The notes under the pieces: model-generated | The model's input: the letters and a program-made list of their open reading frames with translations, nothing else | Databases searched by the model: none | What the model was told of the DNA's origin: nothing | Position numbers and translations under genes: made by a program | Shown here: piece by piece, positions 397 to 19,337 of the stretch | Position numbering within the stretch: the stretch's first letter is position 1 | Layout: the number at the start of each line of letters is the position of its first letter | Origin: a virus | DNA length: 64,000 nt | Virus record (IMG/VR): IMGVR_UViG_3300006793_000013 | Direction: 5' to 3' (one strand)

Positions 397-420
397 AACA
401 CCCTCCTTTTTAAAGTTAGG

Positions 421-468
421 TGCGTTCCTTCGCATAATGCTACTTCCGTCCCGATTGGGATGAACGAT
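421..468 (-). promoter_or_regulatory. Glutamine riboswitch (glnA-type three-way junction with E-loop)
   Basis: Minus strand ATCGTTC-A-TCCC-AATC-GGGA-CGGAAGTA-GCA-TTA-TGC-GAAG-GAACG-CA: P1 CGTTC/GAACG, P2, P3 and the CGGAAGTA/GAAG junction strands match the glnA motif as recalled. Confidence 0.85.
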
Positions 469-4490: not shown

Positions 4491-5138
4491 TTAAATGGTA
4501 TTATTTTGACTCATTTTGTGTTGATATATAGTTCCTTCGAAGGTATTCTCAAAATCACGCATACTAATGTGTTTTAAATTTGTATGCTGTGGACCTAGTT
4601 TATCGGGTATAAATGCGCCATCATCAATGATTCTATAAAAGGTTACCTTGGTAAATTCCTTAATTACCTTTTCTGTTTGGCTTAGCCAATTGCCAAAAAA
4701 CGTTGCAGAATCAGTAGTTTTCTTGTAATTAAAGGTGTCTGCGTATACATTATTAAACTTTCCTTTAAGTCCTTGATAGTCAAATCCAGCAATATAAATG
4801 TGTCTATGGCCGTTTTGTGCTGCAAACCATAGTGCAGTAGGACCGCTACTCCATCCTTTGTGTGGACTAAAATAGTTAATATTACTATTAGTTTTAATCC
4901 CTTTGTTAGGATTAGTCCATACTGTACCCTTTTGATGGTAGTTTGCTTCAATCATCTCATTAACCATTTTAACATCTACTGCTACAACGTAATGAGGATC
5001 AAACTCTCTGTATTGTGCATTACAACCATATACTGTTCCAATGTTTAAAAGTTTTTCACAGTTAATGGTGCCGCGGCTCATGCCGTTGCCTAATACGAAT
5101 GCTATATCTTTGTGGTGTTTTTTATTCTTCTTGCTCAA
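4491..5138 (-). CDS. Putative nucleotide-sugar transferase-like protein (GT29/MptE-like fold)
   Basis: AFVLGNGMSR...VYGCNA...VAVD...WSSGPTA...IYIAGFDY motif order; TTG start. Confidence 0.45.
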   Translation of the reverse strand: MSKKNKKHHKDIAFVLGNGMSRGTINCEKLLNIGTVYGCNAQYREFDPHYVVAVDVKMVNEMIEANYHQKGTVWTNPNKGIKTNSNINYFSPHKGWSSGPTALWFAAQNGHRHIYIAGFDYQGLKGKFNNVYADTFNYKKTTDSATFFGNWLSQTEKVIKEFTKVTFYRIIDDGAFIPDKLGPQHTNLKHISMRDFENTFEGTIYQHKMSQNNTI

Positions 5139-5361
5139 GCTTCGCCCCGTACATTTGTCTAATAAAATCTAGCTCTGATTCTTTTTCAGCAACATGAGCT
5201 TCGGATTGTAATCTTAATTGATTAATCTGACGTAATGTAAGGCGTACTTTTCTAGTGTCATCTTTTGAAAGGACATCGTCATCTTTCTTGTTGTCGTAAC
5301 GACGGTCGACGGAAAAGTCGTTAACGTCATCATTAAAATATAAAAATTCTCTCAAAAGCAT
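5122..5361 (-). CDS. Hypothetical protein (79 aa), possibly head-associated
   Basis: Follows portal with its own TAAATA; MLLRE N-terminus. Confidence 0.6.
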   Translation of the reverse strand: MLLREFLYFNDDVNDFSVDRRYDNKKDDDVLSKDDTRKVRLTLRQINQLRLQSEAHVAEKESELDFIRQMYGAKLEQEE

Positions 5362-5366
5362 ACTAG

Positions 5367-5372
5367 TATTTA
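5367..5372 (-). promoter_or_regulatory. Late promoter TAAATA
   Basis: Abuts the portal stop, 5 nt before ATG 5361 (near-leaderless transcript). Confidence 0.5.
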
Positions 5373-7067
5373 TTAAACTGCAGGTGTTTCTGCTGTTTCT
5401 CCGCCACTTACATCATCAGCAGGAGGTGCTTCAGTTGGTGCTTCTGTTTCTTCAGCTGCGCCGTCTGCTGCCATTCCTGTAGGTGTAACACCCACCGATC
5501 TTAATTCACCGCCTGCGTCTCCAGGCTCTTGTAAATTACCTGCATTTTCTTCTCTCCACAATTTTTCATTTTCTACAATTTCTTCTTGCGTTAATCCTAA
5601 GTAACGCTTCATTGCAAAACGTTTACTTAAATGTGGAATTGCGTCTACAACACTAAAGATGTTCGCTCTAGTAGTATCAAGTTCTGCTTGTCTGTATGCC
5701 GCAAAGTTTTGTGGTGGTTGGAAGTTAATATTAAACAGTGATGCATCAATGTTATAGCCGTTACCGTCTAACCAAAGTTTAAACTCTTTGTCAAACGCTT
5801 CACACATAATGCTTTGAAGTCTTTCACAGTATTTGTTAAATCTTAATTCTTGGATATATGCTGTTCCTACTTTACCGTCTGAAACAGTGTTTGCTTGTTC
5901 ATCAATTGATGTTGGCAAATAACTTGCAGGAATACGTAATGCTCTAAACAGTTTATTTGTAAAATATTTTAAGTCTGTAATTTCACCTAGGTTAGTACCA
6001 CCTGGTAATGTTTCAACTTTAGATCCTCTTCCTTCTGCTGTTTGTGGAAAGAAGTAATCTTCATTGGTTGATAGTGGATTATAACTTGCGTCAATAACAC
6101 TAGTTCCACCGCCTGTCGAACTAGGAATACGTCTTTGTTGGATTTCATTTTTAACTTTTTCAACAAAGCTCATTGCCATGTGTGCAGGCATGTTACCTAC
6201 ATCAACATAAAAAATTCTTCTTTCTGGAGCACGTTGAATTCTATAAATGATAATTGCATCTTCTAGCAATTCTTTTTGCTTGTAAACTTTAAACACACTT
6301 TCGAGTAATGAGTTACCAAAAGGATAATTGTTATCTAATCCTTCTGATAACGAAATGTGTACAATATGTTTTGCGTCTACTGTAATTTCGTTTTGTCCGT
6401 TTTGAAAACGTGTGCCTGTTGGCTGTGCTGCATCACCTACCATGCCACGTGCAAATCCGCCACCGCTTGTATATGAACTTGTTCCGCTTGGTGATGTATT
6501 TGTTGTGCCGTGTGGTGTAGTTGCAACTAAATCTTTAAAATTAAAATTAATATCTTTAATTACATACTGCTCTGGAATCTTTCCTAAAGATTCGTTAACA
6601 ATAATTTTAGAAACTTTTGCGTTATCAATATAAAGTAATTTTTTAGTTTCTGGATCTCTTAAAAAGAATGCATCACCGTACTTGAAAGTGTTACGCACAA
6701 TACGAAACATACGTGTTTCAAACTGTTGCGACTTGCTCCACTTCTGCATTGCTTCTTTAAGAAGTTTAGTTTCAGTGCCGGAAGGTTGTCCTCTAAAGTT
6801 AAAGTTAAAATTACTTAAATTCCCGCTGTCTTTTCCTGTACAAAATTCTGCAAGAATATCTAGTGCTGCGTTTACTTCTGAATCCATATCCATGGTGTCG
6901 TACTGCATGTATTTTTCAATACGGTTTGGACTACCAGCATATACGTCTGGAAGATACGAACTGTAGTTTGAACGTGCAGGACCAGGACGGCCTCCTCCAC
7001 TTATTGGGCTGTAACTACCCGAGTTATTATCAACTGCTACAGGTGTAAAATATTTTTTCCAACTCAT
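5373..7067 (-). CDS. gp20: Portal protein (gp20 family)
   Basis: LLEDAIIIYRIQRAPERRIFYVDVGNMP and EDYFFPQTAEGRGSKVETLPGG motifs. Confidence 0.97.
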   Translation of the reverse strand: MSWKKYFTPVAVDNNSGSYSPISGGGRPGPARSNYSSYLPDVYAGSPNRIEKYMQYDTMDMDSEVNAALDILAEFCTGKDSGNLSNFNFNFRGQPSGTETKLLKEAMQKWSKSQQFETRMFRIVRNTFKYGDAFFLRDPETKKLLYIDNAKVSKIIVNESLGKIPEQYVIKDINFNFKDLVATTPHGTTNTSPSGTSSYTSGGGFARGMVGDAAQPTGTRFQNGQNEITVDAKHIVHISLSEGLDNNYPFGNSLLESVFKVYKQKELLEDAIIIYRIQRAPERRIFYVDVGNMPAHMAMSFVEKVKNEIQQRRIPSSTGGGTSVIDASYNPLSTNEDYFFPQTAEGRGSKVETLPGGTNLGEITDLKYFTNKLFRALRIPASYLPTSIDEQANTVSDGKVGTAYIQELRFNKYCERLQSIMCEAFDKEFKLWLDGNGYNIDASLFNINFQPPQNFAAYRQAELDTTRANIFSVVDAIPHLSKRFAMKRYLGLTQEEIVENEKLWREENAGNLQEPGDAGGELRSVGVTPTGMAADGAAEETEAPTEAPPADDVSGGETAETPAV

Positions 7068-10846: not shown

Positions 10847-11038
10847 GTTGAACTATCCAATAATTTAGATAAGGATGCAAGGGCACTTAAAAAAGACATT
10901 CTACAAATCTGCTGGTATATGAGAGGAATGGATTATACTGCCGCTATGCATCTATCGTTTGAAGAACGTAAAATTATTGGTGATATTATTAAGAGTAATT
11001 TAGAAACCACTAAAACAAGTGGTTTGCCTTTCTTCTAA
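10808..11038 (+). CDS. -1 frame extension of the gp26-like protein (gp51/GT-like segment)
   Basis: Open -1 frame from the slippery site; the upstream ATG 10772 has no evident RBS. Confidence 0.6.
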   Translation, partial: FRRQILTLPVSEIVELSNNLDKDARALKKDILQICWYMRGMDYTAAMHLSFEERKIIGDIIKSNLETTKTSGLPFF

Positions 11039-13485
11039 ACAGCAACTAATTGTTGCTTAATCTTATCTTTTACAGGTTGTTGTAATTTAGAAATTTCAGT
11101 TGCTAATGCTTTCAGGTCAACTGGCTTAGCTGGTGTTGCTGGTTGTTCACCACCTGCTGCTGGTTGTTCTCCATCTTTACTAACTGGCATCGGTTCACCA
11201 GTTGCATCATTCTTTCCATCGTTGTTAGCATCGACAGGTGCTTCTGGTTCTTGACCTGCTGCTGCCGGCTGTTGTGCTGTTGCCGCTGCTGTTGCTGGTG
11301 CTTTAATTTTCATAGAATCATATGTACCTTTGATTACATCATCATTAACACCTAAGCCTTTAATTATATTATATACTTCATCTGAATCTGTAGGACTTCC
11401 TGCTTTTTTCCAAGCAGTCATTAATTTTTCTGCTGTTACTGCTGTTGTAACTTGTTTAGCAGCGCCTGCAATACCTGCGCCTGCTTTTCTTGCACCTTTG
11501 CCTATAGCGGCTCCTGCAATTTTAGCACCTTTTGCTGCTTTTGCTCCTACTGCTCTAGCACCTTTAGCAACTGCACCGCCTACACCTTTCGCTGCTGCGC
11601 CTACTTTTGCTGCTGCTCCGGCAAGTGCGCCTAGTGGATTCTCTTCAAGTTCTTGTCTATTGTAATGACGTACAGCATCAAATGCACTTTCAAACATAAG
11701 TTTGTTTTCAAGCATATGTGTGTTAACATTTTCTAGTCTATTAAACAGTAGGTATACTTGTCCTTCTGATAATTTTTGACCTTTACTAATTTTACTTTCT
11801 TCTTTAGCAACTGCGCCTTCGCCAACAACAGTTTTATCTTGCATTGCTGTACCCATTGCAACCGCAGTTGCAGCAGCACCAATGCTTTTAGCAATATCTT
11901 GTTTAAGTGTATCAACGAGTGTAGCAACATCTGCTTTAGAATCTGCCGCAACACCTGAATACTGGTCCATAAAATCCATTAACTGTTTAAAGTCATCGTC
12001 TGATAAGTTTGCTTTATCAATGTTGTCCCATAAAGGGTGTGTTGGATTTGTAAACACTTCCTTAATCATCATTACAGGATTACCATCAGCATCAACACCT
12101 TCAACACTAACCGTACTTGAGAATGTAAGTGGTGGTTCAATATCTCCAACCGTTGAAGTAATTTCTGATTTAAACATGTCACCAACTTTAATTTCGTTAC
12201 CATCAGGTAATGTAGTTGATGTTAGTGTTGGAGTATCTCCTGTCCAACTTGTAGCAAGTTCTTTGTTAGCAGAAATTTCAGTTCCCATAAACTTAGCATC
12301 TTGTAGTCCTTTTTCCATTTGAAATATTTTTTGTACATCATCTGGATCAAGTCCTTTACTTTCTGCCCATGCTTTTACTTCTGGAGAAATATTTGGTTCG
12401 GTATCAAAATTAATACCTGCTTCTTTTAATCGATCAGCCGTAACTGTTTCTGCGTCTACTGTTTTAACATCAAATGAACTATCTGTACCACTGCTGCCTG
12501 CATCTTGATCACCATACTGGCCGTCATCGCCTGGTAGATCAGTTTTTTGTGAGTCAACTGATGTAGTAGTGGTTGTATCTCTTGCTAGATCCTGTCCTTC
12601 TAGTCCAGCATAATCAGCAAGTGCATCTCTACCACCTAGCTCACCGATTTTCTTTGATGTCTCAGAAAACTGTTGCATTACAAGATCTTGTTCTTCGCCG
12701 GAAAGATTCTTTGCTGCTGTTTCTAGTGCGTTTTGTGTTTTAAGTAAATCTTCAATTGCTTCTGGTGAAACGTCTTCAAGGCTAGTTGCACTCATCGCTT
12801 CTAGTCCGTTAACGTCAATCGTTTGTCCATCAGTAGCAATAATAGCCTGTGAAATGTCTGGATCGATAAGATCGCCAACTGCTTGTATCGCAGCACCAGC
12901 AGCAAAACCAACTGCACCAGTTTTAACTGATTTACCAATTGATGTTGAAAGTTCTTTACCTTGTAAAATGTCTTTTGTTGCTCTTGCTAAGAAACCTGCT
13001 ACAGCACCGCCTAGTGGTCCGCCTGCTAGTGCAGCAGCCGAAGTTAAAATAGCAACCGCTACAGTTGCTTTTCCTGGATTTTCTTTTGCCCAGTCACTAA
13101 CCGCTTTTACGCCTTGTACTACTTTAGAATCTTTGTCGCCAATTTTTTGTTTAAGTTCATTGAACTTGGCATCCATGTTTTGTACAGGACCTGCCTTTTG
13201 AATAGCACCGCCAAGATCGTCAATTTTTTTGTTGATTGCACTTGCAAACTTACCTACAGCATCAGTACCTTTACCTATTGCTGTTCTATTACCGCCTGCG
13301 GCAGTAGCACCTTGTTCAATGCTTGTGAATAGATTGTTAATTTGATCTGGTGTAAGTGTTGCTTCAGCAACCATACGCTCAAGATCTGCTACCCAAGGCT
13401 GAATAACCTTTTGCTCCAATAGGAGCATTTCAGGATCATTCCAAGATTCGGTAATATATTTTTGTTCTAGTTGTGCTAATCTCAT
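11035..13485 (-). CDS. Ala/Gly-rich putative internal head (ejection) protein, 816 aa
   Basis: Glycine-zipper hydrophobic stretch, AAK/GAK repeats, (I/L)xE motifs; ATGA-coupled to the upstream gene. Confidence 0.5.
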   Translation of the reverse strand: MRLAQLEQKYITESWNDPEMLLLEQKVIQPWVADLERMVAEATLTPDQINNLFTSIEQGATAAGGNRTAIGKGTDAVGKFASAINKKIDDLGGAIQKAGPVQNMDAKFNELKQKIGDKDSKVVQGVKAVSDWAKENPGKATVAVAILTSAAALAGGPLGGAVAGFLARATKDILQGKELSTSIGKSVKTGAVGFAAGAAIQAVGDLIDPDISQAIIATDGQTIDVNGLEAMSATSLEDVSPEAIEDLLKTQNALETAAKNLSGEEQDLVMQQFSETSKKIGELGGRDALADYAGLEGQDLARDTTTTTSVDSQKTDLPGDDGQYGDQDAGSSGTDSSFDVKTVDAETVTADRLKEAGINFDTEPNISPEVKAWAESKGLDPDDVQKIFQMEKGLQDAKFMGTEISANKELATSWTGDTPTLTSTTLPDGNEIKVGDMFKSEITSTVGDIEPPLTFSSTVSVEGVDADGNPVMMIKEVFTNPTHPLWDNIDKANLSDDDFKQLMDFMDQYSGVAADSKADVATLVDTLKQDIAKSIGAAATAVAMGTAMQDKTVVGEGAVAKEESKISKGQKLSEGQVYLLFNRLENVNTHMLENKLMFESAFDAVRHYNRQELEENPLGALAGAAAKVGAAAKGVGGAVAKGARAVGAKAAKGAKIAGAAIGKGARKAGAGIAGAAKQVTTAVTAEKLMTAWKKAGSPTDSDEVYNIIKGLGVNDDVIKGTYDSMKIKAPATAAATAQQPAAAGQEPEAPVDANNDGKNDATGEPMPVSKDGEQPAAGGEQPATPAKPVDLKALATEISKLQQPVKDKIKQQLVAV

Positions 13486-14342
13486 ATCATCATCGCCAAT
13501 TGTTTTTTGTCCGCAGGATTTAGCTCGTCAATTTGCTTCTGTATTTCCGCTGGAATTTCACCTGGGGCTGCTGTTGCTTGTGCTGCGGGTTGATCGCCTG
13601 CTGTTGACGCTGTATTCGCGTCTGTGGCACCATCTGTGCCTGTTTTAGCTTTGTTATATGCTTGTTTAAAACTTGAAGCAAAGCCACCTGCACCTGGCTT
13701 ACCTGCATCAGCCGGATCTACTTTGCCTGCACTAGGTGCTGCAATGCCACCTTCGTCTGATGCAATCTTGTCTTTGGCTGCTGCCATAAAAATTTTGTCT
13801 AGTTGTGCACCACTAAAGCCTTCTGCAATAGTTGTCATGCTTGAACGATCAATACTTGCTGCTAAATTTGTGTTACCTGCTTTTGCTTGTGCTTGATCTG
13901 TTTGTGTTGGAATCGGCGCAGGCTTATCGCCTACCTTTGCGGCCGCATTTTTTGCTCCCTGTGCAACGTTAGTTGCGGCGCCAGCCGCCGCGGAAGCTGC
14001 TTTTTTAACACCTTTTGCCGCTGCTCCTACTGCTGCACCAGCTTTTTGTGCCATAGTAGGATCTTTCATTGCTGCTTCTGCACCTTTAGTAGGGTATCCG
14101 TTTTTTCTTAGAAAGGAAATTACAAGTTCTGGAGTTGCACCTTCAGCGCCACCCACTTTACCTAGAAATAAATCGAACTTATCTGATATCTCGTTAGCCA
14201 TAGCACCAACTTCAAGTTTACCTTTAGCCCTACGTCCAGTTCTACCAGGTACAAATGTCTGTGCTTTAGCACCGAGCTTACCTAATACGCCCATAGGACG
14301 TTCATCTAATTGTTGTTCGCTAATTATCTCATTAAGTTTCAT
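13482..14342 (-). CDS. Ala-rich putative internal head protein, 286 aa
   Basis: MKLNEIISEQQLDE N-terminus, Ala/Lys/Gly repeats, own late promoter. Confidence 0.5.
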   Translation of the reverse strand: MKLNEIISEQQLDERPMGVLGKLGAKAQTFVPGRTGRRAKGKLEVGAMANEISDKFDLFLGKVGGAEGATPELVISFLRKNGYPTKGAEAAMKDPTMAQKAGAAVGAAAKGVKKAASAAAGAATNVAQGAKNAAAKVGDKPAPIPTQTDQAQAKAGNTNLAASIDRSSMTTIAEGFSGAQLDKIFMAAAKDKIASDEGGIAAPSAGKVDPADAGKPGAGGFASSFKQAYNKAKTGTDGATDANTASTAGDQPAAQATAAPGEIPAEIQKQIDELNPADKKQLAMMI

Positions 14343-14370
14343 GCCGATAGTTCCATGTAATCCATATATG

Positions 14371-14380
14371 TATTTATTTA
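14371..14380 (-). promoter_or_regulatory. Late promoter (overlapping TAAATA pair)
   Basis: Minus strand TAAATAAATA ~30 nt upstream of ATG 14342. Confidence 0.65.
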
Positions 14381-14401
14381 AAGAACAGCTAAAGCTGTTC
14401 T
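14379..14401 (-). terminator. Perfect 8-bp hairpin with short T tail; possible 3' end of the upstream transcript
   Basis: AGAACAGC-TTTA-GCTGTTCT followed by only two further T, so a weak terminator signature. Confidence 0.4.
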
Positions 14402-14983
14402 GCGTTTTCGCTATCGCTCAACGCACTTGCTTCGCTATTACTTATGTGAAAGTGATTCAGTGTTAAAATTATTTTAACTATTAACTGCGAAGCAGTTTTA
14501 GCATTATCTAGATTGTATGGTCACAATTAGCCCGTTGTCGGGGCCAAAGGTGTGTTTTGAACATTATCTGAGTTCGCACAGTCACAATAGCGTTAGATCT
14601 ACAATGCATTTAATTTTACATAGCGTAGGCGGTTATCCGTTACCTACTCAATCCGTCTTAGTATCTTATGTACAACGGCAGTTTACTATACAAACGCTAA
14701 CTTATATAATAAACCTGCGAGAATTACTCGCTCATTTAGCCTATTTAAATTACTTCTATTAATATACAGCAAACCGGTTCTACGTAGGCGTATCCGATCA
14801 GCGTCCTGTTAAGGATAGTGCTGTTATACCTCTGCCGTTAACCAGAATTCCTTACCGTCACACATCAGAACGGGCTTAGGGCCACATAATTGCGCCGTGG
14901 CGGGCTTATTTAACGGTGTTTGAGCTGTTTTGTTAGCCTTGGGATATATTGTGTATTAGTTGTGGTTCTGTATAAAATGCAAA
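14402..14983 (-). ncRNA. Candidate large structured non-coding RNA (or origin) 3' of the GIY-YIG gene
   Basis: Only large gap in a densely coded window. Nested inverted repeats 14529-36/14869-76, 14674-81/14832-39 and 14766-71/14819-24, plus internal direct repeats. Strand inferred from operon context. Confidence 0.55.
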
Positions 14984-15424
14984 TTAAGAGTCATTTAATC
15001 GTTTAATTTCTTCTTTTAATAGTTTAGAACTGCCTACTCTTACATTGATTATTCCATTGTAATATTCGTCTGATTCTAATACTCTACGATCAAATTGTTC
15101 CTTTGCCTCTATGTAACTAAGTACGCCTCTGCTTGGACAGTAGTGTAATATTTCTCTGGTAAATTTTTCTTTGCCTAACTTCTCTACATCTGCTAGTAGA
15201 TGTTCACTAGATCCCCAATAGTCTCTCCAGTCACTTTCTACTTTTGAACGTCTTTTATTTTTTTTGCCCTTGAGTGGTGGGCGTGTTTTTTTGAATTTTG
15301 CTAGTTTTTTGCCTATGTATTTTCTGTCGTTAGTAAGATTTGTAATCAGATAGACAAACCCTTCACAGTCTTCTGGAAGTTCTTTAATCTTCTTCTTTTG
15401 GTAAGTCCATTCTGACGTCATCAT
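14984..15424 (-). CDS. Minimal GIY-YIG endonuclease (146 aa)
   Basis: GFVYLITN...KYIG, YWGSS, KEQF and EYYNG motifs; basic insert; no appended C-terminal DNA-binding module. Confidence 0.8.
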   Translation of the reverse strand: MMTSEWTYQKKKIKELPEDCEGFVYLITNLTNDRKYIGKKLAKFKKTRPPLKGKKNKRRSKVESDWRDYWGSSEHLLADVEKLGKEKFTREILHYCPSRGVLSYIEAKEQFDRRVLESDEYYNGIINVRVGSSKLLKEEIKRLNDS

Positions 15425-15653
15425 TAGTAGTTACTTTCTTGGGACGTCCGACCTGGCCTTTTCTGGCTAACTTTCTCTCTGATCGTTTCTCTTGTACTTC
15501 TAGCCTTCGTTGACTTGCATGTTTTCTAATTTCACTCAGCCAAAATCTTGCCTTAATTCCTGCTTCATCACTACCATGATACTCAAAGCGATCCTGCCAC
15601 TTAAAGTATTTCTGAAATGCTTCAATCATCTGGTCATGTGAATCTGTTGCCAT
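15384..15653 (-). CDS. Small basic protein, possibly histone H1-like (Hc1 family)
   Basis: G.DEAGIKAR..LSEIRK.A..RR.EVQ resembles the Hc1 core; basic tail. Confidence 0.4.
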   Translation of the reverse strand: MATDSHDQMIEAFQKYFKWQDRFEYHGSDEAGIKARFWLSEIRKHASQRRLEVQEKRSERKLARKGQVGRPKKVTTNDDVRMDLPKEED

Positions 15654-15655
15654 AC

Positions 15656-17431
15656 CTATTCCACAATTTCAACATCATTACTATAAGATGTAAAACCGTT
15701 TTCTTTGATTACTTTTAGTACGTGATTAACACGACTTGTTAAATCATCTCTATGACTGATTAAGAACACATTTTTCTGTCTTTCTCTAGTCATTTTCTTA
15801 AGGATACCAATACTAGATTCTACTCCAGCACTATCCATACCACTATCTACAAGCTCATCTATGAATAATAAGTTAATGCTGTGATATAAACTTTCCCATA
15901 CATCACGGAATGCCCAACTCATAGATAAAATAAGTCTGTTACGTTCACCTCTACTTAAATTGTCAAAGTCTAAATCTTGTCCTAGCTGTGTAATTACAAC
16001 GCTAAGGTCATTTTGAAACTCAACAATATGCGGCAAACCAATTTTTGCCAAGTAATATGTAATACGCTGATTTAGATATGCAAGATTTTGCTCAATAATT
16101 TTCTTACGAACAAAACTGTCTTTGTTTGTTAACAGTTTGTACAAAAAGTCCTGATGATCTTTTACTTTTGTTAATTCATTAAGTAGATCAAAACTTACTT
16201 CCTGTATTGCAGTATCTTTTAATTCTGTAATTTGCTCGCTATAAGGATTAATATCATCTTTCTTTGCTTGTAAATCTTTTTCTAATCCTTCAACTGTGCT
16301 TCTATGTTGCAATGCTTGTTCAAGTGTGTCATATTGTGTAGGTGGACAACCTTCTAGCTCACCAATGTCTGCAATAACAGTTTGATGTTCTTCTAGTTGT
16401 GTACTATTAGCAAGAATTTGCTCAGCCGCTTCTTGCTTTTGTTCTTCTTTAGCACCGAGAATTTCTTCTTGCTTTTTATCATGTAATTCTTGTCCACAAG
16501 TATGACACTTGTGTTCTTTAAGCAATACAATTTCATTATCTAATTTTTCAATTAGTTTTTCTTGTTTAGAATCATCAGCTTCAATGTTAGCAATCCAACG
16601 TTTTGCTTCTGCAATCGCTGACTGCTTTTTATTAAAATCGTCTAAACATTTGTGTGCTTCAATTTCTGCATCAATATCAATTTCTTGTAAAATTTTAATA
16701 CTTGACTCAAGTTCGTCAATTGCAGATACCTTTTGATCTTCCCACATACGCTGTTTGCGTTCTAACGATTCGATGTTTTGTTGAATTTTTTCGTTAGATA
16801 TTTTAACAGTTTCAATTCTTGTATTCTCAGAGCTCATCTTGTCTCTGTTAATTTTCATTTCTTCTTTAAGACACTCAGCTTTTTCAGATAACAATGTAAT
16901 ACCTAGCAACTGTTCAATAATTGCCCGCTGATCATTATTTTTTAATGCAAGGAAAGGTTCAGTGTATGTGTTTAGTGCAATGAGATGCTTAAACATATCA
17001 TGCGACATACCAAATAGTTCTTCAATTACTTTTTGTGTTTCTCTACTATCGCCTTGACTTTCATCAGAATCTTCTTCAAAGTCTTTACCGTTAATAGTAA
17101 ACTTTGTAATATTAGGCTTTCTACCACGCTCAATCTTATAGTCAACTCCATCTTTTTCAAAGTTGATTGTAACAAGCATTCCTTTGCCGTTGATCTTATT
17201 AATAAGATTATCACGCTTAATGTTTGTTAATGCATTACCATAGATTGCGTAACTAAGTGCGTTGACGATAGTAGTTTTACCAGTGCCGTTTCTAGAACCG
17301 CTATCGTCACCACCTAGGTCTAGGTTCTCACCTAGTACAAGCGTTAATTCACCTTTGTCAAAATTAATTGCTTGAGTCTGGTTGCCCACACTCATAAAAT
17401 TCTTTACTGTTAGGTCTTTAATTTTTATCAT
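15656..17431 (-). CDS. gp46: Recombination ATPase (gp46/SbcC/Rad50)
   Basis: Walker A NGTGKTT, CHTC zinc hook, LSRGE signature, IDE Walker B, ISH. Confidence 0.96.
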   Translation of the reverse strand: MIKIKDLTVKNFMSVGNQTQAINFDKGELTLVLGENLDLGGDDSGSRNGTGKTTIVNALSYAIYGNALTNIKRDNLINKINGKGMLVTINFEKDGVDYKIERGRKPNITKFTINGKDFEEDSDESQGDSRETQKVIEELFGMSHDMFKHLIALNTYTEPFLALKNNDQRAIIEQLLGITLLSEKAECLKEEMKINRDKMSSENTRIETVKISNEKIQQNIESLERKQRMWEDQKVSAIDELESSIKILQEIDIDAEIEAHKCLDDFNKKQSAIAEAKRWIANIEADDSKQEKLIEKLDNEIVLLKEHKCHTCGQELHDKKQEEILGAKEEQKQEAAEQILANSTQLEEHQTVIADIGELEGCPPTQYDTLEQALQHRSTVEGLEKDLQAKKDDINPYSEQITELKDTAIQEVSFDLLNELTKVKDHQDFLYKLLTNKDSFVRKKIIEQNLAYLNQRITYYLAKIGLPHIVEFQNDLSVVITQLGQDLDFDNLSRGERNRLILSMSWAFRDVWESLYHSINLLFIDELVDSGMDSAGVESSIGILKKMTRERQKNVFLISHRDDLTSRVNHVLKVIKENGFTSYSNDVEIVE

Positions 17432-18450
17432 TGATTACGTCCAAGGTCCCTATATATCTCTACCAGCATACGTTTGTCAACAGTATCACTATCAATTGCT
17501 TCGATTTGATTCATAACAATAGTGTCAACACTTTCAAACGTAAGATCAATAGGATCAACGTTTGATTCTACTTCTACCTTTTCTGGTATAAGACTTAGTT
17601 CTCTAAGTTTGTATTGTGGAATAAAAGTTTCTCTAATAAAGTTTGCTTCTTCAAAACTAATAGGCACATCAATTGTAACTCGACAGTGCATATTTTCACC
17701 TAAGTTAGAATCCGGATCTTCAAGAAGCTGACTTAATTTGTATGTTCTAAACACAGGTTGCTTTGGCCATGTTTTATATTCAGGAGTTCCTCCCCAATCT
17801 AAAAACATCATGCCACGTTCATCATCCCATGCATCTGCATAGTTGTGTGGAAATGCATTACCGATGTATGTTACATTACCTTTAGTTTGTCTTTTATGAA
17901 AGTGTCCGCTAAACACATATTCTTGATTTACAAAATGATCTGCCTGAAGTGTTCCATGGTCAGGCATCTGTACCATAGCATTCATATAAAACAGAGGAAG
18001 TTCAAAGTGTCCAAATACATACCTACTTTTAATTTTAGGCACCATCTTCCATTCTTCACCTACTAACCAAGGAAGTAATGTTACTTCGCCTTCTGTAAAA
18101 ATATCTGTAATAGGAATGATGTTTGGAAACAATCGCATAAACTCAATAGAGTTAATTTCACGTTTGTCTTTGTAAAATAAATCATGGTTACCTACCATGA
18201 AGTAAGTCTTCTCGAATGTTTCGTTAATTCTTTCTAAATTAGAAACTGTGTAGTTCATTGTGCTAACATCTGTAGTAGCACGATTATGATGCCAGTCTCC
18301 TAAAAATATGCAAGTTTCTGCACCAGCGGCTTTTGCTTCATCACAAAACCACTTTACGAATTCCTCGCAGTCCATGTTATGCGTTCTGCTGCCACCTTTC
18401 ATACCAAAGTGTATATCAGTGAAGCAGGCTGCTTTCTTAAATAACGGCAT
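17428..18450 (-). CDS. gp47: Recombination nuclease (gp47/SbcD/Mre11)
   Basis: DIHFG, GDWHH, GNHD and GHFH metallophosphoesterase motifs. Confidence 0.96.
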   Translation of the reverse strand: MPLFKKAACFTDIHFGMKGGSRTHNMDCEEFVKWFCDEAKAAGAETCIFLGDWHHNRATTDVSTMNYTVSNLERINETFEKTYFMVGNHDLFYKDKREINSIEFMRLFPNIIPITDIFTEGEVTLLPWLVGEEWKMVPKIKSRYVFGHFELPLFYMNAMVQMPDHGTLQADHFVNQEYVFSGHFHKRQTKGNVTYIGNAFPHNYADAWDDERGMMFLDWGGTPEYKTWPKQPVFRTYKLSQLLEDPDSNLGENMHCRVTIDVPISFEEANFIRETFIPQYKLRELSLIPEKVEVESNVDPIDLTFESVDTIVMNQIEAIDSDTVDKRMLVEIYRDLGRNQ

Positions 18451-18491: not shown

Positions 18492-19337
18492 TCAAGTCTT
18501 TTTCTTTGCTTTGGAATCTTTATGTTTGTTAGGGTGTGCATCAGCATTTTGTCTAGTCCAACTAGGATTCATGCCGTTCATCTCTAAAATATCATCTCTG
18601 ATATTTTGGTTGCGTTTTTCAATATTAATAATACGAACAAAACTATTTGTTACAGCCGCAGTGTAATAAGCAAATGGGTTATTACTTTTTGACTCGTCAA
18701 ATTGTAAACCTATCTGTGCTAATTGCAAAATTGCCTGACCTTTCATTTCGTCGTTATATGTATATCCTCTAACATTACCTCTTGTTGCGTACCTATCACA
18801 CAATTTCATAAACATTCTTGCAAGGTCGTTAGTCATCTGTCCACACTTCTTATCGAAGTATCCGTTTTCCATACCACCAACCCAATGGCTTTTGCCTACA
18901 CAAATCAAATTTCCTTTGTCATCAAACTTCCAATGCTGGAAAGGAGGAAAGTTTACTTTTTCGTGCTTGTCTGCAACAGTCTTAATTGTTTTCTTGCGAC
19001 CAGGTTCTTCTGGAACATGATCAAATGTCATAATTCTAAAAATTAAATCTTCTTTTTGCATTTTACGGTAGTCTATATCAAACCCTTTTGCAGGCATCTT
19101 TTTACCTGCGGCTTCAACTGCTTCAGCATGTGCAAGTTTAGATAGTCTAGCAGCACGGTTGCGTTTTGCTTCTGCTACGGTTCTAATGTTAATTTTTTCT
19201 AATGATGGCAGTATAATATCGTACTGTGCATAGCTATCGTCAGTAAAAGAACAGAAAGTAGACTTACTGCGGTGTATTTCCGCTAATAAATCCTTATTTG
19301 TTAGATATTTTATCTTTTTTGGTTGCCCAATTGTCAT
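18492..19337 (-). CDS. gp55: Late-transcription sigma factor (gp55 family)
   Basis: YLTNKDLL N-terminus and YTYNDEM...FDESKSNNPFAYYT...NSF.R.I..EK core. Confidence 0.9.
   Translation of the reverse strand: MTIGQPKKIKYLTNKDLLAEIHRSKSTFCSFTDDSYAQYDIILPSLEKINIRTVAEAKRNRAARLSKLAHAEAVEAAGKKMPAKGFDIDYRKMQKEDLIFRIMTFDHVPEEPGRKKTIKTVADKHEKVNFPPFQHWKFDDKGNLICVGKSHWVGGMENGYFDKKCGQMTNDLARMFMKLCDRYATRGNVRGYTYNDEMKGQAILQLAQIGLQFDESKSNNPFAYYTAAVTNSFVRIINIEKRNQNIRDDILEMNGMNPSWTRQNADAHPNKHKDSKAKKKT

What the first reader, a model, noticed from the sequence alone, without database searches (positions are those of the whole stretch)
14381..15424. Minimal GIY-YIG nuclease followed by a ~600-nt structured non-coding region: candidate nuclease-RNA system
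Seen: in a window where genes abut or overlap, the only large gap follows the stop of a 146-aa GIY-YIG ORF. It has nested long-range helices: AGCCCGTT 14529-36/AACGGGCT 14869-76, AACGGCAG 14674-81/CTGCCGTT 14832-39, ACAGCA 14766-71/TGCTGT 14819-24, and local TCCT/AGGA 14804-14. No terminator is evident between the ORF and the region, and a perfect hairpin closes it at 14382-14401. Known: GIY-YIG homing endonucleases such as I-TevI and Seg proteins append DNA-binding domains for specificity. This one stops after the catalytic domain and carries a basic insert (KFKKTRPPLKGKKNKRRSK). Inference: the RNA may partner or guide the nuclease, as the 3' RNA does for TnpB, or be an independent large phage RNA co-transcribed with gp55-47-46.
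Basis: partly seen in the sequence, partly recalled or inferred. Interest (0 to 1): 0.85.

Follow-up and report, generated by a model that had tools for sequence, protein, structure and literature searches.

The report
Large phage RNA beside GIY-YIG nuclease
The gene-free stretch behind a small nuclease gene of this uncultured T4-like phage encodes a real, roughly 570-base folded RNA whose first quarter is the catalogued but unexplained Polynucleobacter-1 motif. The nuclease looks like its habitual neighbour, not an enzyme it guides.

Summary
The core observation holds. 14343-14983 is the window's one long gene-free stretch and encodes, on the gene strand (-), a structured RNA of about 570 nt.

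- **Known part:** 14906-14762 is a full-length match to Rfam RF01718, the orphan Polynucleobacter-1 motif (67.9 bits, cut-off 37).
- **Uncatalogued part:** a middle 'tail' and a 230-nt 3' domain (14605-14375). My model of that domain hit 100 of 100 sources searched, 96 of them related phage loci, with strong covariation (97% paired against 74% shuffled).
two of four are real Rfam helices. The two long-range 8-mers are not supported.
- **Linkage is real:** 96 of 103 RNA loci fetched by an RNA pattern have the GIY-YIG gene upstream.
- **Linkage is not obligate:** a nuclease 74-76% identical sits after nrdB with no RNA (phage Melnitz and others). The RNA also occurs behind a PD-(D/E)XK nuclease, upstream of the GIY-YIG gene, inside a tmRNA/tRNA array, and in 9 of 101 Polynucleobacter genomes beside a small integrase.

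Best reading: a stand-alone RNA gene flanked by a homing-type nuclease, as SegB sits among T4 tRNA genes. It is not a guide RNA. Its function, and its two identical 7-nt boxes, remain unexplained. This scan has already found this RNA in over 100 other genomes.

The parts
14984..15424 (-). GIY-YIG nuclease gene, 146 aa, catalytic domain only (SegE-type family)
   Evidence: Pfam PF19835 E 2e-35. Often mis-named 'NAD synthetase' (PHROG 447). AlphaFold model pLDDT 83, best PDB fold matches are the I-TevI catalytic domain, prob 0.96 but weak E 0.13.
14907..14945 (-). 5' leader of the RNA (conserved AAGGCU/AGGCA word, then ACCGUUAAAUA); true 5' end not determined
   Evidence: Upstream stretches of 26 RF01718 hits share AGGCA-type words and the CCGUUAA-type run. 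nhmmer alignments start about 14918.
14762..14906 (-). 5' domain = Rfam RF01718 Polynucleobacter-1 RNA, full length
   Evidence: cmscan 67.9 bits, gathering score 37, E 2.8e-12, model 1-141. The same family is found at the same place in 23 related phage loci.
14606..14761 (-). Middle domain, the 'tail' of Weinberg 2010: hairpin 14731-14717, arm GCCGUUG 14679-14673 with UAACGG 14642-14637, hairpin GUAGG 14647-43 / CCUAC 14629-25
   Evidence: Matches the tail helices and pseudoknot line of the 2010 Stockholm file by eye. Coordinates checked. Conserved in nhmmer hits at profile positions 116-300.
14375..14605 (-). 3' domain, the most widely shared part of the RNA and not in Rfam
   Evidence: Own covariance model R1 scores 137 bits here and hit 100 of 100 sources searched. 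97.1% of cells paired against 73.6% shuffled and 31-49% when slid; 451 two-sided changes against 114.
14563..14569 (-). Twin box 1 (AGAUAAU), in a loop closed by GAAC 14575-72 / GUUC 14562-59
14503..14509 (-). Twin box 2 (AGAUAAU)
   Evidence: The same 7-nt word as box 1 in 92 of 95 sequences, with 16 different words in the family.
14528..14546 (-). Hairpin Ha (UGGCCC / GGGCUA)
   Evidence: Helix 1: 98.6% paired, 3 of 5 pairs with two-sided changes, many G-U pairs that fix the strand.
14484..14496 (-). Hairpin Hb (ACUGC-UUC-GCAGU)
   Evidence: Helix 2: all 5 pairs change on both sides.
14401..14425 (-). Helix Hc (UGCGUU / AACGCA) enclosing the GAGC-GAUA-GCGA mini-hairpin with tandem G-A pairs
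   Evidence: Helices 3 and 4. The register of the outer part was read by eye.
14382..14401 (-).
   Evidence: Helix 5: all 8 pairs change on both sides. In most relatives no U run follows it, so it is not a canonical terminator.
15384..15653 (-). 89-aa basic ORF (holds GRPKK) that overlaps the nuclease start by 41 nt; a neighbour in this context only
   Evidence: Syntenic in most gp46-linked loci. Absent from the other contexts. No family.

Best explanation
The gap is a gene for a large, modular, structured non-coding RNA read from the same strand as its neighbours: the phage form of the Polynucleobacter-1 RNA. It has a leader, the catalogued 145-nt 5' domain, a middle 'tail', and an uncatalogued 230-nt 3' domain that carries two identical 7-nt boxes and ends in a conserved hairpin. 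It is a stand-alone RNA gene of aquatic phages and small bacterial integrative elements. The 146-aa GIY-YIG protein next to it is a homing-type (Seg-like) nuclease that habitually sits beside this conserved RNA gene, as SegB sits among T4 tRNA genes. By cutting rival genomes it would favour inheritance, or amplification, of the RNA locus together with itself. Shown: the RNA, its structure, its strand, its linkage and the exceptions to that linkage. Inferred: the homing role of the nuclease, and that the RNA acts in trans. I expect the looped twin boxes to dock two copies of one partner, but what the RNA does is not known.
For: RNA identity: RF01718 at 67.9 bits. 3' domain model R1 hit all 100 sources searched (96 phage loci and 4 bacterial copies), with 97% pairing, 451 two-sided changes against 114 in shuffles, and about 35% when slid. 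UUCG-type and GNRA-type loops and G-U pairs fix the strand. Not coding: median longest ORF 17 aa, peptides not conserved, stops in every frame in 98 of 100. Linkage: an RNA-only pattern fetched 116 viral loci, all confirmed as this RNA; 96 of the 103 with 900 nt or more upstream have the GIY-YIG gene upstream on the same strand. Loci sampled through gp46 show gp46-orf89-GIY-RNA down to 60% gp46 identity, even where 1-3 kb of other genes are inserted. Independence of the two: (i) GIY-YIG without RNA: Melnitz has GIY 76% but gp46 29% identical, the gene follows nrdB, and there is no significant R1 match (best E 0.015, 16 bits) and no nhmmer match; L048/050/058/064 likewise. (ii) RNA with another nuclease: PDDEXK_15 in L176 and L211. 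(iii) RNA upstream of GIY in L163 and L210 (L210 carries a podophage adaptor gene; the two share a homologous upstream ORF), and with weak R1 scores in L039/L066. (iv) RNA with no recognisable nuclease: L250 between a permuted tmRNA and at least 17 tRNAs, and L223. (v) Bacteria: RF01718 in 9 of 101 Polynucleobacter genomes; in 8 of 8 loci examined, both domains lie between DUF6641 and a 188-aa tyrosine recombinase, with no GIY-YIG. Precedent: SegB lies in the T4 tRNA cluster and drives its preferred inheritance (PMC2330249). SegB homologues co-localise with tRNA genes (p 1e-50) and amplify them (PMC13096335).
Against: The nuclease is nearly universal in this clade (about 100 of 105 RNA loci), whereas selfish homing genes are usually sporadic. 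It also lacks the DNA-binding domain that gives Seg enzymes their site specificity. Adjacency in at least three unrelated genomic contexts and in both orders is also what a functional pair would show. No cleavage site, empty site or gene-conversion tract was identified. My RNA pattern was derived from GIY-linked copies, so the 96/103 figure may overstate the linkage in the wider family. No expression data could be obtained.
Confidence: 0.62

Rival explanations
1. Nuclease-RNA system: the RNA binds the domain-poor GIY-YIG protein (or whichever DNA enzyme is encoded next door) and supplies target recognition or control, with the fast-changing twin boxes as the programmable part, in the manner of TnpB/IscB omega RNAs.
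For: The protein has only a catalytic domain. RNA and nuclease are adjacent in about 100 of 105 phage loci, in three or more contexts and both orders, always on one strand. A nuclease of another fold takes the same place, and bacterial copies sit beside a small recombinase. The twin boxes vary as a pair (16 words, 92/95 identical) with no partner inside the RNA.
Against: Proteins 74-76% identical are encoded without the RNA in Melnitz and the nrdB-context contigs. More distant family members in the cyanophage S-SRM01 and a Variovorax phage also lack it; no Rfam or R1 match in either. The RNA exists without any nuclease. The boxes are internal loops, not an end-adjacent guide. Neither the box word nor its complement is clearly enriched in flanking DNA.
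Confidence: 0.07
2. Cis-regulatory RNA: a long UTR that controls translation or stability of the nuclease mRNA or of the gene downstream. The 2010 paper's table rated it 'y' (likely) as cis-regulatory.
For: It is always on the strand of its neighbours and starts within 10-80 nt of the nuclease stop. No promoter-like or terminator-like site separates ORF and RNA in the window.
Against: It lies 3' of the nuclease gene in most loci and 5' of it in others. The genes on both sides change (orf286, orf816, a peptidase, tRNAs). In L250 it sits among tRNA and tmRNA genes. At 450-600 nt with several domains it is far larger than known phage leaders. A TAAATA-type box lies between its last hairpin and the next ORF in the window.
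Confidence: 0.08
3. Translation-linked RNA that docks tRNAs. The fixed core of each box reads like a codon followed by A (AUG/AUA-A in phages, CGA-A in bacterial copies), as in a T-box specifier loop, so the RNA would hold two tRNA anticodon loops.
For: Box 1 is in a hairpin loop. Position 6 of the box is an invariant A. L250 places the RNA inside a tmRNA/tRNA array. Large phage RNAs such as GOLLD and ROOL also lie near tRNA genes (my own knowledge).
Against: Pure pattern reading with no test made. The variable flanking positions (1, 2, 7) are not explained by anticodon-loop pairing. Only two or three 'codons' occur in the whole family.
Confidence: 0.04
4. A DNA-level element (replication origin, recombination hot spot or nuclease target array) rather than an RNA.
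For: It contains repeated words (the twin boxes) and lies next to recombination genes gp46/gp47 and a nuclease.
Against: Helices keep pairing through G-U pairs that would be A-C on the other strand. It has RNA-type tetraloops and triloops and a match to an Rfam covariance model on one strand only.
Confidence: 0.03

Closest known systems
Polynucleobacter-1 RNA motif (Rfam RF01718; Weinberg et al. 2010, Genome Biol 11:R31, PMC2864571)
   Same: The window's 14906-14762 is a full-length member (67.9 bits). The 2010 supplement already says that most copies lie downstream of genes of family GOS11034, that a 'tail' with a pseudoknot follows in some, and that one copy is in Polynucleobacter. The GOS flank text ends in the same C-terminal peptide as this GIY-YIG protein.
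   Different: Rfam holds only the first 141 positions. The gene family was not recognised as a GIY-YIG nuclease. No copy had been seen in a phage genome. The 3' domain with the twin boxes, the forms that lack the RF01718 part (L084-type and L010-type) and the alternative neighbours are not described there.
SegB and the T4 tRNA gene cluster (PMC2330249; PMC13096335)
   Same: A GIY-YIG Seg-type nuclease gene is embedded next to genes for structured stable RNAs. Such nucleases are horizontally mobile, often domesticated in myoviruses, and promote inheritance or amplification of the adjacent RNA genes.
   Different: SegB is longer and, as I recall, has its own DNA-binding part. The RNA here is one 570-nt molecule of unknown function, not tRNAs. 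Homing by this protein is inferred, not shown.
Large ornate phage-borne RNAs (GOLLD, ROOL)
   Same: Several hundred nucleotides, many helices and pseudoknots, carried by phages and prophages, sometimes beside tRNA genes, function unknown.
   Different: No sequence or structure match (cmscan of the window found only RF01718 and a glutamine riboswitch). Oligomerisation was not tested.
Omega RNAs of TnpB/IscB (HEARO RNA of the same 2010 survey)
   Different: Omega RNA and nuclease are obligate partners, and the guide lies at the RNA end next to the element border. Here each partner occurs without the other, and the variable words are internal twin loops.

Membership tests
Rfam RF01718 Polynucleobacter-1 RNA | Score at or above the curated gathering score over the whole model | tested here: met
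   67.9 bits against 37, model 1-141/141, - strand.
Rfam RF01718 Polynucleobacter-1 RNA | Family helices kept by compensatory change in relatives | tested here: met
   The closing helix is ACAGCA/UGCUGU here and GCAUCA/UGAUGC in L026. 23 related phage loci score 59-121 bits.
Rfam RF01718 Polynucleobacter-1 RNA | Position downstream of a GOS11034-family gene (2010 description) | tested here: met
   The motif starts 78 nt after the stop of the GIY-YIG ORF. The GOS upstream ORF ends with the same peptide.
Free-standing GIY-YIG homing endonuclease (Seg type) | GIY-YIG catalytic domain | tested here: met
   PF19835 2e-35. The GIY/YIG blocks are largely invariant in 14 relatives (F23 V24 Y25, Y36 G38), as are R59, E106 and N123, which I take to be catalytic by analogy with I-TevI. 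The top fold matches are I-TevI, but with weak E.
Free-standing GIY-YIG homing endonuclease (Seg type) | Separate DNA-binding domain that gives site specificity | tested here: not met
   146 aa, and the Pfam domain covers residues 6-126. Only two short C-terminal helices remain, with low confidence.
Free-standing GIY-YIG homing endonuclease (Seg type) | Mobility: the same gene at different sites in unrelated genomes, with patchy distribution | tested here: inconclusive
   Proteins 74-76% identical lie at three sites (after orf89, after nrdB, after the RNA), and in Melnitz gp46 is only 29% identical. Within the clade, however, the gene is almost always present.
Free-standing GIY-YIG homing endonuclease (Seg type) | Cleavage of the nuclease-less allele and gene conversion | not testable with these tools
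   Needs enzyme assays or mixed infections.
RNA-guided nuclease systems (TnpB/IscB type) | Nuclease gene always accompanied by its RNA | tested here: not met
   In Melnitz, R1 over the whole record gave only E 0.015 (16 bits) at an unrelated place, and nhmmer on the fetched stretches found nothing. The nrdB-context contigs have no RNA match.
RNA-guided nuclease systems (TnpB/IscB type) | RNA always accompanied by the nuclease | tested here: not met
   8 of 8 bacterial loci, plus L250 and L223, lack it. L176 and L211 have a PD-(D/E)XK enzyme instead.
RNA-guided nuclease systems (TnpB/IscB type) | Variable guide segment in a conserved scaffold that matches a target | tested here: inconclusive
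   The twin boxes vary (16 words) in a conserved scaffold, but no matching target was found within 3 kb or in about 740 kb of flanks.
GOLLD / ROOL large RNAs | Match to the Rfam models | tested here: not met
   There was no such hit at the gathering score in the window, or at E up to 10 in 14200-15100.

The most novel reading that the evidence does not exclude
The twin boxes are a programmable pair of recognition loops. The RNA docks two copies of one nucleic-acid partner and thereby steers or licenses the DNA enzyme encoded beside it: GIY-YIG or PD-(D/E)XK nuclease in phages, a 188-aa tyrosine recombinase in Polynucleobacter elements. That would be a new kind of RNA-assisted mobility or anti-defence module.
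Probability: 0.06. Interest if true: 0.85.

Novelty: new variant of a known kind. Interest (0 to 1): 0.45.

Why it matters
Polynucleobacter-1 has been an orphan entry in Rfam since 2010. Only its first 141 nt were modelled, it was labelled after a bacterium, and no function is known.

- This locus and its relatives show that it is mainly a phage RNA of 450-600 nt. It is widespread in uncultured aquatic T4-like phages with large genomes.
- It has a near-universal 3' domain, interchangeable 5' parts and a pair of co-changing 7-nt loops.
- The linkage to a mobile GIY-YIG nuclease gives a second natural example, beside SegB and tRNAs, of a Seg-type nuclease tied to a structured-RNA gene.
- It also removes an attractive but wrong candidate from the list of possible new RNA-guided nucleases.

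None of the six cultured phages whose whole records I searched with the 3' model has the RNA; I looked for the Polynucleobacter-1 motif itself over the whole records of three of them and only around the nuclease gene in the other three. Function will therefore have to be tested with synthetic constructs or a new isolate.

Tried and rejected
- **Sequence search:** blastn of the 641-nt gap against 50,697 phage records found no match.
- **Cultured phages:** R1 over the whole records of six cultured phages found no significant match. PA5oct, Phosso and Atu_ph07 gave nothing at E up to 0.1. Variovorax V45v66 gave nothing at E up to 1, Melnitz's best was E 0.015 (16 bits) and S-SRM01's best E 0.18. 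RF01718 was searched over the whole records of PA5oct, Phosso and Atu_ph07 (none). For Melnitz, S-SRM01 and V45v66, Rfam was scanned only over 6-10 kb around the GIY-YIG gene (none).
- **Alignment folding:** RNAalifold on MAFFT alignments recovered only 2-3 hairpins because the alignments slip register. I used a hand-set structure and a covariance model instead.
- **T4 endonuclease II (DenA) idea:** prompted by the size of the protein and the nrdB-adjacent site in Melnitz. It was dropped. The sequence search of PDB found no match, the best fold matches are I-TevI, and the 'Escherichia' relatives are FelixO1-like phages, not T4.
- **Small ORFs:** the 33-aa ORF 14609..14508 (-) and the 81-aa ORF 14517..14762 (+) were rejected as genes. 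There is no conserved frame, and they overlap covarying hairpins.
- **Partner for the twin boxes:** none was found inside the RNA, at a fixed place within 3 kb or enriched in flanks.
- **Upstream small proteins:** orf89 and the small protein upstream of the Melnitz nuclease are unrelated.
- **Promoter:** a late-promoter-like TAAATA sits just before the RF01718 part in the window, but it is not conserved in relatives.
Full report
**What is at the site.** The window comes from a 98-kb IMG/VR viral contig, 28% complete by CheckV. It carries T4-type genes on the minus strand: gp55 (19337..18492), gp47 (18450..17428), gp46 (17431..15656), an 89-aa basic ORF (15653..15384), a 146-aa ORF (15424..14984), a 641-nt stretch without a credible gene (14983..14343), and a 286-aa low-complexity ORF (14342..13482).

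The 146-aa protein is a GIY-YIG catalytic domain of the SegE-type family: Pfam PF19835, E 2e-35 over the whole profile. Databases often mis-name this family 'NAD synthetase' (PHROG 447). Its three best PDB fold matches are the I-TevI catalytic domain, with probability 0.96 but a weak E of 0.13. By gp46, the closest cultured phages are the jumbo phages PA5oct, Phosso and Atu_ph07, at 45-49% identity.

**The gap is a known RNA motif plus a larger uncatalogued remainder.**
- cmscan of the whole window found RF01718, Polynucleobacter-1 RNA, at 14906..14762 on the minus strand: 67.9 bits against a cut-off of 37, covering the full model.
- The only paper in the library that names it is Weinberg et al. 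2010. Its supplement says the motif occurs in environmental samples and in one Polynucleobacter genome. [quoted passage not shown] It adds that no copy was seen in any sequenced purified phage, and that some copies have a 'tail' with a pseudoknot.
- In their alignment the upstream ORF of one GOS scaffold ends with the peptide that ends this GIY-YIG protein. GOS11034 is therefore this nuclease family.
- Their unannotated flanks also align by eye with the rest of the window's gap.

**Comparative evidence for the whole RNA.**
- Relatives of the nuclease in IMG/VR (80 loci, 72-92% identical) were searched with the gap. After iteration, 60 of the 80 (plus the window's own record) had a homologous non-coding stretch directly downstream. 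Among the 20 without a hit, about half are cut by a contig end within a few hundred bases of the nuclease stop, and most of the others have the nuclease in a different context.
- The 3' part is shared by all 60. The middle part and the RF01718 part occur only in subsets.
- I built a covariance model (R1) of the 3' domain with five hand-set helices. It scored 137 bits on the window (14605..14375) and found a match in every one of 100 sources searched, 96 phage loci and 4 bacterial copies.
- On the resulting alignment, 97.1% of cells form pairs, against 73.6% in shuffles and 31-49% when the partners are slid. There are 451 two-sided changes against 114, and 20 of 22 pairs change on both sides. 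That alignment is fitted to the model, which flatters the figures. However, the same hairpins already showed two-sided changes on plain MAFFT alignments.
- Frequent G-U pairs, UUC/UUCG-type and GNNA loops, and the one-stranded Rfam hit fix the transcript to the gene strand.
- The region is not coding: the median longest ORF is 17 aa, the peptides are unrelated, and 98 of 100 sequences have stops in all frames.
- Single-sequence folding is only mildly better than shuffles (z -2.1).
- Loci without an RF01718 part have other conserved, hairpin-rich 5' parts (L084-type and L010-type). The family is therefore modular and 450-600 nt long.

- ACAGCA/TGCTGT and TCCT/AGGA are RF01718 helices, the first with a compensatory variant.
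- The 8-mers 14876-69/14536-29 each lie in a local hairpin of their own (the 5' arm in an RF01718 hairpin, the 3' arm in covarying hairpin Ha), and they lose pairs in relatives.
- 14839-32/14681-74 is kept in three relatives only by G-U pairs, and the 2010 model pairs that arm locally. I treat both as unsupported.
- The hairpin 14401-14382 is the conserved last helix of the RNA. Most relatives have no U run after it, so it is not a typical terminator.

**Is the nuclease the RNA's partner?** The physical linkage is strong.
- A pattern taken from the RNA alone fetched 116 viral loci, all confirmed as this RNA. Of the 103 with enough upstream sequence, 96 have the GIY-YIG gene upstream on the same strand.
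- Loci sampled through gp46 show the same order down to 60% gp46 identity, even where other genes are inserted between gp46 and the nuclease.
- The nuclease is more conserved (72-82%) than gp46 (55-62%) in the same loci.

Each of the two nevertheless occurs without the other.
- **Nuclease without RNA.** Methylophilales phage Melnitz has the nuclease at 76% identity directly after nrdB, as do contigs L048, L050, L058 and L064. Its gp46 is only 29% identical, and it has no significant RNA match (R1 best E 0.015, 16 bits; no nhmmer hit). The more distant family members in cyanophage S-SRM01 and a Variovorax phage also lack it.
- **RNA with another nuclease.** In L176 and L211 a PD-(D/E)XK nuclease (PF24608) takes the nuclease's place.
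- **RNA upstream of the nuclease.** In L163 and L210 the RNA lies immediately upstream of the GIY-YIG gene. L210 carries a podophage adaptor gene, and the two contigs share a homologous upstream ORF. L039 and L066, where a baseplate gene lies upstream in L039, show the same order with weak R1 scores.
- **Other arrangements.** In L271 a radical-SAM gene lies between the two. In L250 the RNA sits between a permuted tmRNA and an array of at least 17 tRNA genes with no recognisable nuclease, and L223 also has none.
- **Bacterial copies.** RF01718 is present in 9 of 101 genomes of the Polynucleobacter genus, sometimes twice. In all eight loci examined, the 5' motif is followed 300-360 nt later by a match to my 3' model. 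The RNA lies between a divergent DUF6641 gene and a 188-aa tyrosine recombinase, and no GIY-YIG gene is nearby.

**Interpretation.** The RNA is a gene in its own right, carried by mobile DNA: phages and small integrative elements. The nuclease behaves like a horizontally mobile Seg-type gene that has settled beside a conserved RNA gene.
- This is the situation of SegB in the T4 tRNA cluster, where the enzyme secures preferred inheritance of the tRNA region (PMC2330249).
- According to a 2026 study, SegB amplifies adjacent RNA genes and co-localises with tRNAs across phages (PMC13096335).
- I put this reading at about 0.6. The points against it are the near-fixation of the nuclease in this clade, its lack of a DNA-binding domain, and the absence of any identified cleavage site.
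- The guide-RNA reading is at about 0.07 because both partners stand alone.
- A UTR-type regulator is unlikely, given the RNA's changing position, neighbours and size.

**An unexplained feature.**
- The 3' domain holds two boxes, 14569-14563 and 14509-14503, both AGAUAAU here.
- They carry the same 7-nt word in 92 of 95 sequences, while the family uses 16 different words.
- Their variable positions share 0.7-1.1 bits of mutual information with each other, and at most 0.52 bits with any other column of the RNA.
- Neither the word nor its complement has a fixed place nearby or a clear enrichment in flanks.
- The identity holds whatever gene is next door.
- Both boxes probably meet the same partner in trans, or are kept alike by conversion. 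I could not tell which.

**Earlier notes of this scan.** The scan's notes describe the same 'extended Polynucleobacter-1 twin-box RNA' in over 100 other genomes, with the same verdict. I reached the RNA identity, the independence from the nuclease and the repeated units from my own calls. I then quantified the boxes after reading those notes.

**Verdict.** The finding is real and ordinary in kind: a member of a catalogued orphan RNA family, seen here in its full phage form, and not a new nuclease-RNA machine. Its function is still open.

Noticed in passing
window 419-468 (-): Full-length glutamine riboswitch aptamer (RF01739, 58 bits), as known from marine phages and cyanobacteria.
   Followed up: no
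L250:999-11187 (-): A viral contig with a permuted tmRNA (RF04321, 92.5 bits), at least 17 tRNA genes on one strand, and this RNA in the middle of the array with no recognisable nuclease beside it.
   Followed up: partly
L304-L311 (Polynucleobacter and related genomes): A conserved three-part module: a divergent DUF6641 gene, the two-domain RNA, and a 188-aa tyrosine recombinase that has only the catalytic domain. It is present in about 9% of genomes of the genus, sometimes twice, so it is probably a small integrative element.
   Followed up: partly
L176:3963-4484 and L211:1517-2071 (-): A PD-(D/E)XK nuclease (PF24608, PHROG 'RusA-like resolvase') occupies the exact place of the GIY-YIG gene between the orf89-like ORF and the RNA.
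   Followed up: partly
window 15384-15653 (-): An 89-aa basic ORF with a GRPKK (AT-hook-like) word overlaps the nuclease start by 41 nt and is syntenic in most loci. It could be a separate DNA-binding subunit of the nuclease. It has no family in Pfam or PHROGs.
   Followed up: no
window 14907-14945 (-), and upstream of RF01718 in 26 loci: AGGCA-type words recur one to three times in the leader before the RF01718 part. In several loci the nuclease's stop codon is the UAG of UAGGCA.
   Followed up: no
L002 (Melnitz) 4998-5438 and L048/L050/L058/L064: The same nuclease family inserted after nrdB and a small zinc-ribbon-like ORF, a classic neighbourhood for homing genes. The nuclease is 76% identical to the window's, although the gp46 proteins are only 29% identical.
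   Followed up: yes
window 11035-14342 (-): Two long Ala/Gly/Lys-rich low-complexity ORFs (286 and 816 aa) follow the RNA. They match no family, and parts of them are conserved in relatives.
   Followed up: no
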